In this document: piece by piece, positions 6,767-9,837 of the stretch | Numbering within the stretch: the stretch's first letter is position 1 | Layout: the number at the start of each line of letters is the position of its first letter | Source of the DNA: Candidatus Omnitrophota bacterium | GTDB lineage: Bacteria; Omnitrophota; Gorgyraeia; Aquiviventales; Aquiviventaceae | Direction of reading: 5' to 3' | NCBI GenBank assembly: GCA_016190215.1 | Contig: JACPRA010000027.1 | Location: 6,659-70,658 of the forward strand | Length of the DNA: 64,000 nt | The notes under the pieces: model-generated | Databases searched by the model: none | The model's input: only the letters and a program-made list of their open reading frames with translations | Told to the model about the DNA's origin: nothing | Translations under genes and position numbers: made by a program

Positions 6767-7747
6767 ATGACGTGGTCGCTGGAACGTCCGATTCGGGTCG
6801 CGGTCTTGGGAGCCGGCGGGCTCGGGCGCGCGGCATGCCGGCTGATCAGCGCCAAGCGCGAGCTGCAACTGACGGCCATCTGCGACAGCAAGAGCGCCCT
6901 GGCCTCGCCTGAGGGTTTGGACAGCCGCTCGCTCGGCGCGGGAGCCGGCGAGCTGGGAGCGAGCCGGTGCGACGACCCCATCGGCGCCGTGCTGGGGCAC
7001 GCGGCCTGGTTTGACGCGCTGCTGGTCACGCTGCCCAACATGCCCAACGAATTCATTCCGGGCGTGGTGGGCCGAGCTATCGACGCCGCGCCCGGCGTCG
7101 TGTGCGTAGACGTGCTCAAGCGGACCCGGGCGGTCGAGCTGATGTACGAGCTCGAGGCCGGCGCCAAGCGGACGCAGAGCGTGGTCCTCACCGGCTGCGG
7201 CGCAACCCCCGGGCTCCTCAGCGCGGCCGCGGTCTTGGCGGCGCAATCGTTTATCGAAGTCGAGCGGGTGGATATTTGGTGGGGGGTCGGCATCGCCAAT
7301 TGGGAGGCCTACAAAGCCACGATTCGGGAAGACATCGCGCACTTGCCGGGCTACACGGTGGAGCGCGCCAAGGCCATGACCGACGCCGACGTGGACGCCT
7401 TGCTGGAACGGACGAACGGGCTGTTGGAGCTGCGCCACATGGAGCATGCCGACGATGTGCTGCTGGAGCGGGTGGGCGTGGTCCAGTCGCAGGATCAAGT
7501 CGAGGTCGGCGGCGTGATGGACACGCGCCATCCCAAGAAACCCGTCTCCACCACGATGACGTTGACCGGCATTACCCTGGACGGCAAGCGCGCGTCGCAT
7601 CGGTTTATCCTCGGCGATGACACCACCATGGCCGCCAACGTGCTTGGCCCCGCGCTCGGTTATCTGAAGCGGGGCATCTGGATGAAGCAGCACGGCCTCT
7701 GCGGGGTGTTCGGTTCGACCGAGTTCCTGCCGATGGTCGTGCGCTAA
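6767..7747 (+). CDS. NAD(P)-binding Rossmann oxidoreductase (saccharopine-dehydrogenase-like); candidate BioU-type bioA substitute
   Basis: GxGxxG motif (IRVAVLGAGGLG). GAGGAGG lies 6 nt upstream of the ATG at 6767; the track start at 6761 is TTG. The gene is directly upstream of bioF-bioD, and no bioA is present in the cluster. Confidence 0.5.
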   Translation: MTWSLERPIRVAVLGAGGLGRAACRLISAKRELQLTAICDSKSALASPEGLDSRSLGAGAGELGASRCDDPIGAVLGHAAWFDALLVTLPNMPNEFIPGVVGRAIDAAPGVVCVDVLKRTRAVELMYELEAGAKRTQSVVLTGCGATPGLLSAAAVLAAQSFIEVERVDIWWGVGIANWEAYKATIREDIAHLPGYTVERAKAMTDADVDALLERTNGLLELRHMEHADDVLLERVGVVQSQDQVEVGGVMDTRHPKKPVSTTMTLTGITLDGKRASHRFILGDDTTMAANVLGPALGYLKRGIWMKQHGLCGVFGSTEFLPMVVR

Positions 7748-7776
7748 CCCCGTCCACCTCCCCTGGTGCGCGGTTC

Positions 7777-8967
7777 ATGACGCCGCCCTCCGCGCTGCCG
7801 GAGCTGCTGGCCCTCTTGGAGCAGGAGGTGCGGCAGCTGCAGTCGCGCCGGCTCCTCAGAACGCTGACCACCGTGGAGGCCTGCGACGGCCCCCATCTCA
7901 CCATCGGCGGCCGCGCCCTCGTGGCGTGGTGCACCAACGACTACCTCGGGCTGTCCTGCCATCCGCGCGTCATTGAGGCTGCCTGCGACGCGGCGCGCTG
8001 CTGGGGCGTGGGGGCGCGCGCCTCGCGATTACTGGCCGGCTCCACAGCGGTGCATGCCGCGCTGGAGCGCCATCTCGCATCGTTCTTCCGTGCGCAGGAC
8101 GCCATCGTGTTTCCCACCGGATACCTGGCGAACGTGGGGGCGCTCTCCGCGCTCGCGGGACCTGCGGATGTGGTGGTGGCCGACCGGCTCTGCCACGCGA
8201 GCCTGATTGATGCGTGCCGGGCCTCGGGTGCCGTGTTGCGCGTGTTCCGCCATCAGGATGCCGGACACCTCGCGTCCGTCCTGGCCCGATACCCCTCGGC
8301 CCGCCGCCGGTTCATCGTGACGGAGGGTATCTTCAGCATGGAAGGCGATGCCGCGCCGCTGCGGGAGCTCGTTGAGGCGGCGGAGCGCCATCAGGCGGTC
8401 GTGTATCTCGATGATGCGCACGGCGCGTTCGCCGTCGGGCCCACCGGGCGCGGCAGCCCGGAACACGCCGGGGTGCCGCACGATCGCGTGATCTACATGG
8501 GGACGCTGGGCAAGGCGTTGGGATGCCAGGGCGGATTTGTGGTCGGGCCGACACCGCTGGTCTCCGTGCTGCGCACGCGGGCGCGGACCTTCATCTACAC
8601 CACGGCGCTGGCGGTGCCGGTGGCGGCCGCGGCCGACGCGGCGCTGTCGGTGGTGGAGCAGGACCCCTCGGCGCGGGAGCGCCTCACCCGCAACGTCCTC
8701 GATGTGCGGGCGCGCCTGGCGGCGGCGGCCCTGCCGGTGTTGCCGCAGGGCAGCCATATCGTGCCGGTTCGATTGGGCTCGACCGAGCGGGCCTGCCGCG
8801 TGGCCCAGGCATTGGTCGAGCGCGGCCTCTATGCGCCGGCGATTCGTCCTCCCACGGTGCCGCAGGGCACCGCGCGGCTGCGGATCAGCATCAGCGCGCT
8901 GCATGCGCCGGGCGATGTGGCGCGCTTGGCCGACGTCCTCCAGGCGTGCCTAAGGGAAGATCCTTGA
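7777..8967 (+). CDS. bioF: 8-amino-7-oxononanoate synthase
   Basis: Class II aminotransferase fold with a PLP-lysine context (GTLGKALG). Followed by bioD. Confidence 0.85.
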   Translation: MTPPSALPELLALLEQEVRQLQSRRLLRTLTTVEACDGPHLTIGGRALVAWCTNDYLGLSCHPRVIEAACDAARCWGVGARASRLLAGSTAVHAALERHLASFFRAQDAIVFPTGYLANVGALSALAGPADVVVADRLCHASLIDACRASGAVLRVFRHQDAGHLASVLARYPSARRRFIVTEGIFSMEGDAAPLRELVEAAERHQAVVYLDDAHGAFAVGPTGRGSPEHAGVPHDRVIYMGTLGKALGCQGGFVVGPTPLVSVLRTRARTFIYTTALAVPVAAAADAALSVVEQDPSARERLTRNVLDVRARLAAAALPVLPQGSHIVPVRLGSTERACRVAQALVERGLYAPAIRPPTVPQGTARLRISISALHAPGDVARLADVLQACLREDP

Positions 8968-8983
8968 TGGGCAATCAATGATG

Positions 8984-9047
8984 GGGCAAGGGGCAGGAGA
9001 CAAGGGGCAAGGGTTGTTGAACGTCCCCCGCCCATGCCCCTCCCATC
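8984..9047. repeat. Tandem heptamer array (GGGGCAA-like) facing a C-rich inverted arm
   Basis: GGGGCAA GGGGCAG GAGACAA GGGGCAA GGG, then TCCCCCGCCCATGCCCCTCCC. Confidence 0.7.
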
Positions 9048-9084
9048 ACAAAGAGCTGGGCGACTCTGGGAGCGCCCGGGAGTC

Positions 9085-9837
9085 ATGGTGAGAGGCGCTC
9101 TAAGACCCCGGGGGCTCTTCATCACCGGCACGGACACTGGAGTCGGGAAGACCGTCGTGGCCGCGGGGATTGCCGCCGTCTGCCGGCGCTCCGGCGTTGA
9201 CGTCGGCGTGATGAAACCGCTGGCGACCGGCGTGCCGCGCTCGGGCGTGTCAGCGGATACCCGGTGGCTGGCGCGCGCCAGCGGCACGGCCGACGCTGCG
9301 CGCCTCATCACCCCCGTGACGTACCGCGACCCGTTGGCCCCCTATGCGGCGGCCTGCCTGAGCCGGTCTCCCGTGTCGTGGGATCGCCTGCGGCGCGCCT
9401 GCGAGGAGATGATCCGGCGCCATGAGTTCACGATCGTGGAAGGCATCGGCGGCCTGCTCGTTCCGCTGACCCGCCGCCGGACGGTGCTGGATCTGATCTG
9501 CGCGCTGCAGTTGCCCGTGGTGGTGGTGGCGCGGCTGCGCTTGGGCACGCTCAATCACACGGCGTTGACGGTGGAGCGGGCCAGGGCAGCGGGCGCGACC
9601 GTCGCCGGCGTGCTCCTCAACAGCTCCGACCCTCCCTCGCGCCGCGCCGCGGACCGGCTGGCCGAACGGACGAACCCGCAGATGCTGCGGGAGCTGCTGC
9701 CCGTCCCGGTCCTCGGTATCCTGCCGTACCACCGGGCATTGTCCGGCTCCAGAGTGCCGCCGGAAGCCGCACTGAGGCGGCTCGCCCACCACCTAAACCG
9801 CCCCTGGCTCACTAGCCTGATTCAGCGACCCCGGTAG
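9085..9837 (+). CDS. bioD: Dethiobiotin synthetase
   Basis: P-loop [14 protein letters not shown] prefer the ATG at 9085 (GGGAG upstream) over the track start at 9034; the start is uncertain. Confidence 0.8.

What the first reader, a model, noticed from the sequence alone, without database searches (positions are those of the whole stretch)
6767..9837. bioF-bioD cluster lacks bioA but is preceded by a saccharopine-dehydrogenase-like Rossmann protein: candidate BioU
In cyanobacteria lacking bioA, the DAPA-forming step is carried out by BioU. BioU is a roughly 330-aa NAD(P)-dependent single-turnover enzyme that donates its own lysine amine, and it is found next to bio genes. Here a 326-aa GxGxxG protein sits directly upstream of bioF and bioD, no aminotransferase lies between them, and it has a lysine near position 120 (VDVLKRT). 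That would extend BioU-type biotin synthesis to this lineage. I could not verify sequence similarity to BioU.
Basis: inference. Interest (0 to 1): 0.55.

Follow-up and report, generated by a model that had tools for sequence, protein, structure and literature searches.

The report
BioU replaces BioA in Omnitrophota
The unnamed gene ahead of bioF and bioD is a clear relative of BioU, the cyanobacterial enzyme that gives up one of its own lysines to make a biotin precursor, so this uncultured Omnitrophota bacterium probably builds the biotin rings without the usual BioA; it is a known enzyme in a lineage where databases and metabolic surveys do not name it.

Summary
The ORF at 6767-7747 (326 aa, ATG behind a GAGGAGG ribosome site) matches NCBIfam BioU end to end (E 5.5e-109). 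It matches Synechocystis Slr0355/BioU crystal chains at E 2.5e-94. Its model superposes on the five BioU structures at TM 0.88-0.89. The suicide lysine (K124, here K118) and H233 (here H227) are conserved. bioF and bioD follow directly. No bioA is in the recovered 79% of the genome: the two best aminotransferase hits are ArgD and HemL.

Among 26 relatives of the same order, none has bioA, while 20 have a strong BioU match and 23 have bioB. In other families of the class, bioA is found in 8 of 14 genomes. BioU is found in one of the 14, and that genome lacks bioA. No genome searched has both.

The organism is an Omnitrophota MAG. BioU homologues also occur in Abditibacteriota, Sumerlaeota, Coatesbacteria and Ca. 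Methanoperedens. This is therefore a new member of a known kind, under-annotated by NCBI as a "saccharopine dehydrogenase-like oxidoreductase". This scan has already reported the same thing in at least five other Omnitrophota genomes. Function is inferred, not assayed.

The parts
6767..7747 (+). bioU: 326-aa NAD(P)-dependent, probably single-turnover enzyme that converts 8-amino-7-oxononanoate to 7,8-diaminononanoate carbamic acid. It has the Rossmann motif G15-x-G17-x-x-G20, the donor lysine K118 and H227.
   Evidence: NF047886 scores 364 bits at E 5.5e-109, covering positions 1-323 of 323. PDB chains 6k36 and 6ir4 match at E 2.5e-94, with K aligned to K124 and H to H233. The AF2 model has pLDDT 93.4. 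Foldseek's top 5 hits are all BioU, TM 0.88-0.89. K118 is conserved in 88 of 88 homologues.
6753..6759 (+). Shine-Dalgarno-like GAGGAGG, 7 nt before the ATG at 6767
   Evidence: Read directly from the sequence.
7777..8967 (+). bioF, 8-amino-7-oxononanoate synthase (396 aa), which supplies BioU's substrate
   Evidence: TIGR00858 scores 402.9 bits, the best family though just under its 426 cut-off. Pfam Aminotran_1_2 matches at E 6e-57. bioU-bioF adjacency is conserved in relatives.
9085..9837 (+). bioD, dethiobiotin synthetase. The ORF opens at 9034; the probable start is ATG 9085, giving [23 protein letters not shown].
   Evidence: TIGR00347 scores 155.7 bits against a cut-off of 83.3, and Pfam AAA_26 matches. 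The start was read.
5731..6744 (+). LacI-family regulator gene ending 22 nt before bioU. It is a conserved neighbour and probably not a functional part of the biotin unit.
   Evidence: Pfam LacI plus Peripla_BP_3. Its orthologue lies directly upstream of bioU in 19 of 19 order relatives that have it. In BioA-type relatives the orthologue sits beside a secretin or coiled-coil gene, away from the bio genes.

Best explanation
The gene at 6767-7747 is an orthologue of BioU (Slr0355 of Synechocystis), and bioU-bioF-bioD form the ring-assembly part of biotin synthesis in this Omnitrophota bacterium. The steps below are inferred by homology with the characterised enzyme. BioF makes 8-amino-7-oxononanoate. 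[quoted passage not shown] It carboxylates the conjugate and releases 7,8-diaminononanoate carbamic acid with NAD(P)+, losing the lysine amine, so each protein molecule turns over once. BioD closes the ureido ring, and a BioB encoded elsewhere inserts sulfur. BioU thus stands in for the aminotransferase BioA, which this order of Omnitrophota lacks. Shown here: homology, conserved catalytic residues, fold, operon context, and the either-or distribution of BioU and BioA. Inferred: the chemistry, the single-turnover behaviour, and that the pathway is complete in this cell.
For: Sequence. NCBIfam NF047886 (BioU) matches at E 5.5e-109 and 364 bits over the whole model, and no other NCBIfam or Pfam family matches. 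Slr0355 crystal chains match at E 2.5e-94 over residues 9-328; the next PDB relative is a DAP dehydrogenase at E 7.7e-4.

Residues. VDVLKRT aligns to VDALKRT, which holds K124. MEHADD aligns to the segment holding H233; the K124A and H233A mutants are PDB entries 6itd, 6k37 and 6k38. K118, D115 and R119 are conserved in 88 of 88 homologues, and H227 in at least 97%.

Fold. The AF2 model has pLDDT 93.4. The top five Foldseek hits are the five BioU entries (TM 0.88-0.89, 48-49% identity), and the next fold scores TM 0.56.

Context. The order bioU-bioF-bioD is kept in Omnitrophota relatives, Ca. Methanoperedens and Coatesbacteria.

Distribution.
- In the own genome, the only BioA-model hits are ArgD (next to argF) and HemL (next to hemB).
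- In 26 genomes of the same order, bioA is in 0, a strong BioU match in 20, and bioB in 23. All nine family genomes at least 90% complete have BioU.
- In 14 genomes of other families of the class, bioA is over its cut-off in 8. BioU is in 1, and that genome has no bioA.
- Within family f17, two genomes have BioU next to bioD and no bioA. One has bioA next to bioD and no BioU.

Tree. The window's BioU nests inside its own family and order clade, following the taxonomy. That fits vertical descent and not recent transfer.
Against: The score of 364 bits is below NCBIfam's equivalog cut-off of 600, which was set on cyanobacterial sequences, so curated annotation would not name the gene. No activity has been measured for any non-cyanobacterial BioU that I could find. 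This assembly is only 79% complete and also lacks bioB and birA, so absence of bioA in this one genome is weak on its own; the argument rests on its relatives. No pimeloyl-thioester stage was identified: BioC, BioH and BioW all fall below their cut-offs in four family genomes. The source of BioF's substrate is therefore unknown, as it is in cyanobacteria (PMC12903740).
Confidence: 0.88

Rival explanations
1. The protein is a BioU-like amino-acid or amine dehydrogenase (DAP dehydrogenase / saccharopine dehydrogenase-like superfamily) with a different substrate, and it lies beside bioF and bioD by chance.
For: NCBI calls the close homologues 'saccharopine dehydrogenase-like oxidoreductase'. The score is below the BioU equivalog cut-off. 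DAP dehydrogenases and amine dehydrogenases share the fold at TM about 0.55-0.6.
Against: Those enzymes share only 12-19% identity and TM 0.56, against 48-49% and TM 0.88-0.89 for BioU. The donor lysine and H233 are conserved. Adjacency to bioF is kept across several phyla. BioU and BioA exclude each other in every genome searched.
Confidence: 0.04
2. A normal bioA exists in the unassembled 21% of the genome, and BioU is redundant or does something else.
For: The assembly is 78.9% complete. bioB and birA, which the same-genus genome has, are also missing from it.
Against: None of 26 genomes of the order has a BioA-model hit at E <= 1e-80, including nine family genomes at 90-96% completeness and the same-genus genome at 92%.
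Confidence: 0.03
3. The three genes are real, but the cell does not make biotin de novo. It lacks a pimelate stage and uses bioF-bioU-bioD-bioB only to finish imported pimelate or a later intermediate, in keeping with the host-dependent lifestyle proposed for Omnitrophota.
For: No BioC, BioH or BioW scores over its cut-off in four genomes of the family. A 2026 preprint describes reduced cofactor synthesis across the phylum (10.64898/2026.06.07.730766).
Against: The first stage is equally unidentified in cyanobacteria, which are biotin prototrophs (PMC12903740, PMC7133116), so failing to find it says little. No BioY transporter was found in this genome or the same-genus genome. This rival concerns physiology and does not challenge the identity of BioU.
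Confidence: 0.15

Closest known systems
BioU (Slr0355) of Synechocystis sp. PCC 6803; PDB 6ir4, 6itd, 6k36, 6k37, 6k38; NCBIfam NF047886; KEGG K25570 / module M00950
   Same: Same length class (326 against 331 aa) and alignable end to end at 48-49% identity. The fold is the same (TM 0.88-0.89). It has the N-terminal GxGxxG, the donor lysine in the V-D-x-L-K-R-T motif, and the histidine in M-E-H-A-D-D. It occurs in genomes with bioF, bioD and bioB but no bioA.
   Different: The host is Omnitrophota, not a cyanobacterium. The gene sits directly upstream of bioF-bioD in one operon, whereas none of the cyanobacterial loci fetched had bioF within 4 kb. On the tree it lies on the opposite side from the cyanobacterial clade. 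It scores below NCBI's equivalog cut-off. No biochemistry exists for this clade.
BioA (adenosylmethionine-8-amino-7-oxononanoate aminotransferase, TIGR00508)
   Same: It fills the same pathway step, AON to DAN. The two alternate between related Omnitrophota genomes, each next to bioD.
   Different: The folds and chemistry are unrelated: BioA is a PLP class III aminotransferase that turns over many times with SAM as amino donor. In BioA-type Omnitrophota the operon order is bioB-bioF-(gap)-bioD-bioA. In BioU-type genomes it is (bioB)-bioU-bioF-bioD.
meso-Diaminopimelate D-dehydrogenase and related amine dehydrogenases (e.g. 1dap, 8zmx)
   Same: They share a Rossmann domain plus dimerisation/substrate domain architecture, and are the nearest other solved fold.
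   Different: Identity is only 12-19% and TM about 0.56. The sequence E-value is 7.7e-4 against 2.5e-94 for BioU.

Membership tests
BioU (Slr0355-type AON-to-DAN suicide dehydrogenase) | Full-length sequence homology to characterised Slr0355 | tested here: met
   phmmer against PDB: E 2.5e-94, query residues 9-328 aligned to chain residues 29-353. NF047886 covers positions 1-323 of 323 at E 5.5e-109.
BioU (Slr0355-type AON-to-DAN suicide dehydrogenase) | Score over NCBIfam's curated equivalog cut-off (600 bits) | tested here: not met
   The score is 364 bits. None of 41 relatives reached the cut-off, and none of the 14 control genomes did either. The cut-off appears tuned to close cyanobacterial sequences. 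This is a limit of the annotation threshold and does not mean a defining feature is missing.
BioU (Slr0355-type AON-to-DAN suicide dehydrogenase) | Donor/catalytic lysine equivalent to Lys124 | tested here: met
   K118 (numbered from ATG 6767) in VDVLKRT aligns with the K of VDALKRT. The 12-residue tag offset was checked against H233. The lysine is conserved in 88 of 88 homologues. The role of K124 is taken from PMC12704756 and PMC12915131.
BioU (Slr0355-type AON-to-DAN suicide dehydrogenase) | Histidine equivalent to His233 (mutated in PDB 6k38) | tested here: met
   H227 in MEHADD aligns to H233 and is conserved in at least 97% of 88 homologues.
BioU (Slr0355-type AON-to-DAN suicide dehydrogenase) | N-terminal NAD(P)-binding Rossmann motif | tested here: met
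   VAVLGAGGLG. G15, G17 and G20 are invariant in alignments A1 and A2.
BioU (Slr0355-type AON-to-DAN suicide dehydrogenase) | BioU three-dimensional fold | tested here: met
   AF2 model with pLDDT 93.4 and pTM 0.90. Foldseek ranks 1-5 are 6itd, 6ir4, 6k36, 6k37 and 6k38, TM 0.88-0.89.
BioU (Slr0355-type AON-to-DAN suicide dehydrogenase) | Occurs with bioF, bioD and bioB in genomes that lack bioA | tested here: met
   The operon is bioU-bioF-bioD. No bioA in the own genome or in 26 order relatives. bioB is in 23 of those 26 but was not recovered in this 79%-complete assembly.
BioU (Slr0355-type AON-to-DAN suicide dehydrogenase) | Single-turnover conversion of AON to DAN-carbamic acid; complementation of a bioA mutant | not testable with these tools
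   This needs a bench assay.
BioA (TIGR00508) | PLP class III aminotransferase scoring over 405 bits | tested here: not met
   The best own-genome hits score 241 bits (ArgD by TIGR00707 at 458 bits, next to argF) and 130 bits (HemL by NF000818 at 525 bits, next to hemB).

The most novel reading that the evidence does not exclude
The LacI-family gene at 5731-6744 could be a dedicated transcriptional regulator of BioU-type biotin operons. It ends 22 nt before bioU, and its orthologue lies directly upstream of bioU in all 19 order relatives that carry it. In one genome of another family it lies upstream of bioB-bioU-bioF-bioD. To my knowledge that would be a new class of biotin regulator beside BirA, BioQ, BioR and BioL.
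Probability: 0.1. Interest if true: 0.55.

Novelty: new member of a known kind. Interest (0 to 1): 0.3.

Why it matters
BioU is a biochemical curiosity, an enzyme consumed by its own reaction, and in the papers I could read it is discussed only for cyanobacteria. This locus and its relatives show it is the standard solution for a whole order of Omnitrophota. It alternates cleanly with BioA between related genomes, which is a textbook non-orthologous displacement. The practical consequence concerns metabolic reconstruction. Reconstructions that look only for bioA will call biotin synthesis 'partial' in these bacteria and read that as host dependence. A 2026 preprint on 176 complete Omnitrophota genomes counts bioA in 66 of 176, states that no genome has the full set, and does not mention BioU. 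Counting BioU (KEGG K25570) would change that conclusion for some clades. The value is corrective, not a discovery: the enzyme is known, homologues are abundant in databases, and this scan has reported the same thing in other Omnitrophota genomes.

Tried and rejected
1. LacI as a biotin regulator. Adjacency to bioU is perfect within the order and survives a change of the gene upstream of LacI in two genomes. But in BioA-type or bio-less relatives the LacI orthologue (43-48% identity) sits next to a secretin or a coiled-coil gene and nowhere near bio genes. BioA-type operons have no LacI nearby. In two f17 relatives the bio operon has its own promoter-like region upstream of bioB; in L112 this lies after LacI, and L113 has no LacI nearby. 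I therefore read the link as inherited gene order and keep it only as the low-probability novel case.

2. Recent transfer from cyanobacteria. The tree puts cyanobacterial BioU in one clade (support 100). It puts the Omnitrophota, Abditibacteriota and Coatesbacteria sequences on the other side (support 99), with the window nested by taxonomy. The tree is unrooted, so no donor or direction is claimed.

3. Absence of bioA from this genome alone. This was rejected as sufficient evidence, because bioB and birA are also missing from the 79% assembly. Relatives were used instead.

4. Search for the pimelate stage. BioC, BioH and BioW matched nothing over their cut-offs, and BioY found no match. This is left open.

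5. The original BioU paper (Nat Chem Biol 2020) is not held. What it says about homologues outside cyanobacteria could not be checked.

6. The promoter and terminator scan of 1500-11000 found no promoter-like site between LacI and bioU and no terminator after bioD. These are only consensus matches and are not used as evidence.
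Full report
**What is there.** The window is G+C-rich (about 66%). It comes from contig 23 of a 0.98-Mb, 39-contig assembly rated 78.9% complete. Between 1946 and 13371 all plausible genes run on the + strand. In order they are two secretins (1946-4234, 4238-5734), a LacI-family regulator (5731-6744) and the ORF in question (6761/6767-7747). After it come bioF (7777-8967), bioD (9034/9085-9837), a coiled-coil protein, aroA and mreB. The ORF has three in-frame starts, TTG-GTG-ATG.

**Identity of the ORF.** Pfam has no family for it. 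NCBIfam has exactly one match, NF047886 '(S)-8-amino-7-oxononanoate synthase BioU'. It scores E 5.5e-109 and 364 bits, aligned over model positions 1-323 of 323. That is below the curated equivalog cut-off of 600.
- Against all PDB sequences, the only strong matches are the Slr0355/BioU chains of Synechocystis (E 2.5e-94 to 6.8e-93). The next hit is a DAP dehydrogenase at E 7.7e-4.
- In that alignment VDVLKRT pairs with VDALKRT and MEHADD with MEHADD. With the 12-residue tag of chain 6ir4_A, these are K124 and H233. Those are the residues mutated in PDB entries 6itd/6k37 (K124A) and 6k38 (H233A).
- K124 is the lysine whose amine is donated (PMC12704756, PMC12915131).
- In 88 homologues from several phyla, K118, D115 and R119 (window numbering) are invariant, and H227 is conserved in at least 97%.
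- An AlphaFold2 model (pLDDT 93.4, pTM 0.90) finds the five BioU crystal entries as its top five Foldseek hits (TM 0.88-0.89, 48-49% identity). The next fold, DAP and amine dehydrogenases, reaches TM about 0.56.

**Is BioA really missing?**
- In this genome the BioA model finds two sub-threshold class III aminotransferases. One is ArgD (TIGR00707, 458 bits, next to ornithine carbamoyltransferase). The other is HemL (NF000818, 525 bits, next to porphobilinogen synthase).
- The assembly also lacks bioB and birA, so absence here proves little by itself.
- The relatives settle it. In 24 genomes of the same family plus 2 of sister families in the order, no BioA-model hit reaches E 1e-80. BioU is found at E <= 1e-54 in 18 family genomes and both sister-family genomes, including all nine family genomes at least 90% complete. 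bioB is found in 23 of the 26.
- The same-genus genome (92% complete) has BioU, bioD, bioB and birA but no bioA.
- In 14 genomes of other families of the class, bioA is over its cut-off in 8. BioU is found in one, and that genome has no bioA. Four genomes have none of bioA, BioU and bioB, and a fifth has only bioB.
- A phylum-wide sample of 100 genomes at least 85% complete finds BioU in only two, both in family f17. Those two have BioU close to bioD and only ArgD-level BioA scores (233 and 223 bits). A third f17 genome has bioA (557 bits) next to bioD and no BioU.
- No genome searched has both enzymes.
- The operon layouts differ: (bioB)-bioU-bioF-bioD against bioB-bioF-(gap)-bioD-bioA.

**Who carries it.** The nearest database proteins are labelled 'MAG: saccharopine dehydrogenase-like oxidoreductase [Candidatus Omnitrophica bacterium]'. 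Genome titles agree. One 'uncultured Planctomycetales' record has a BioU identical to that of a same-family genome, so I take its label to be a binning name.
- The family is compact: 12 representatives at E < 1e-30 among 1.84 billion.
- It is well populated: more than 3,000 proteins at 90% clustering and at least 518 species genomes.
- Besides cyanobacteria and Omnitrophota it occurs in Abditibacteriota (including a complete genome), Sumerlaeota, Coatesbacteria, Ca. Methanoperedens and one gammaproteobacterial MAG.
- bioU-bioF-bioD adjacency holds in Omnitrophota, Methanoperedens and Coatesbacteria, but not in the cyanobacterial loci fetched.
- A quick maximum-likelihood tree places cyanobacteria in one clade (support 100). 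Omnitrophota, Abditibacteriota and Coatesbacteria fall on the other side (support 99). The window nests inside its own family and order (supports 96 and 97). That fits vertical inheritance in the order. The tree is unrooted, so no direction of transfer is claimed.

**Mechanism.** By homology, BioF supplies 8-amino-7-oxononanoate. BioU reductively couples it to its own Lys118, carboxylates the conjugate and oxidatively releases DAN-carbamic acid, after which the protein is spent. BioD closes the ring and BioB finishes the pathway. Everything chemical here is inferred from the Synechocystis enzyme as summarised in PMC12704756, PMC12915131 and PMC7133116. The pimeloyl stage was not found: BioC, BioH and BioW are below their cut-offs in four family genomes, and no BioY transporter was found in this genome or its same-genus relative. 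The same gap exists for cyanobacteria (PMC12903740).

**Side lead: the LacI gene.**
- Its orthologue is directly upstream of bioU in 19 of 19 order relatives that have one. This holds even where the gene upstream of LacI differs.
- In an f17 genome the order is secretin-secretin-LacI-bioB-bioU-bioF-bioD.
- In BioA-type or bio-less relatives, however, the orthologue lies beside a secretin or coiled-coil gene, far from bio genes.
- In two f17 relatives the bio operon has its own promoter-like region with an inverted repeat upstream of bioB; in L112 it lies after LacI, and L113 has no LacI nearby.
- I read the LacI link as conserved gene order and give a regulatory role about 10%.

**Novelty and context.** The enzyme is known (PDB entries from 2020; NCBIfam NF047886; KEGG K25570/M00950, used in PMC13688837 and PMC13532358). 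None of the held papers that mention BioU discusses Omnitrophota. A 2026 preprint on 176 complete Omnitrophota genomes counts bioA in 66 of 176 and calls the pathway 'uniformly partial' without mentioning BioU. Earlier reports of this scan reached the same conclusion on at least five other Omnitrophota genomes. My tests on this window agree with them. Verdict: a real, well-supported BioU orthologue, a new member of a known kind, of modest interest mainly as a correction to annotation and to metabolic inference.

Noticed in passing
window 5731-6744 (+): This LacI-family regulator overlaps the stop of the upstream secretin by 4 nt and ends 22 nt before bioU. Its orthologue is directly upstream of bioU in 19 of 19 relatives of the order that carry it. 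In BioA-type relatives the orthologue sits beside secretin or coiled-coil genes instead.
   Followed up: partly
window 1946-5734, 19496-31909 (+): This region has an unusually dense pilus/secretion gene content. It holds two tandem secretins (1946-4234, 4238-5734) and a third secretin (30506-31909). It also holds a PilT-like ATPase (19496-20572), two tandem PilB/MshE-like ATPases (21092-22843, 22840-24558), a PilC-like protein (24569-25777) and a PilM-like protein (27778-28815).
   Followed up: no
L112 (G071:C16) 3759-3831; L113 (G100:C1) upstream of bioB near 5650-5750 (- strand): Two low-G+C Omnitrophota relatives share an inverted repeat before bioB, of the type TTAACCTA..TAGGTTGA, overlapping a TTGACA -35 box. 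L112 also has a perfect 26-bp palindrome, GTAGGCCAGGTTTAAACCTGGCCTAC, after a TTGACA-17-TACAAT promoter. These are candidate operators of the bio operon. From memory the half-sites recall BirA boxes; this was not tested.
   Followed up: partly
L114-L119 (BioA-type Omnitrophota operons): In BioA-type relatives, a stretch of about 1-1.5 kb separates bioF and bioD (for example L114 6540-8070). None of my bio, LacI, secretin, coiled-coil or aroA queries hit it. It may hold an extra biotin-related gene.
   Followed up: no
P0008 (representative, 328 aa, 42% identical): One full-length BioU-family representative has aspartate where the donor lysine should be (DILDQT in place of DVLKRT). It cannot work as a lysine-donating suicide enzyme and may have another function.
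   Followed up: no
L040, L076, L088 (Ca. Methanoperedens): Archaeal Methanoperedens genomes carry bioB-bioU-bioF-bioD with BioU 49-52% identical to the window's. This is BioU-type biotin synthesis in an archaeon.
   Followed up: partly
window 9949-10860 (+): A 303-aa coiled-coil protein with a weak FlgT_C-like C-terminal end lies after bioD and is conserved there in family relatives. A promoter-like site (TTGACA-18-TAGAGT) lies at 9971-10000, just inside the ORF as called, so the true start may be further downstream.
   Followed up: no
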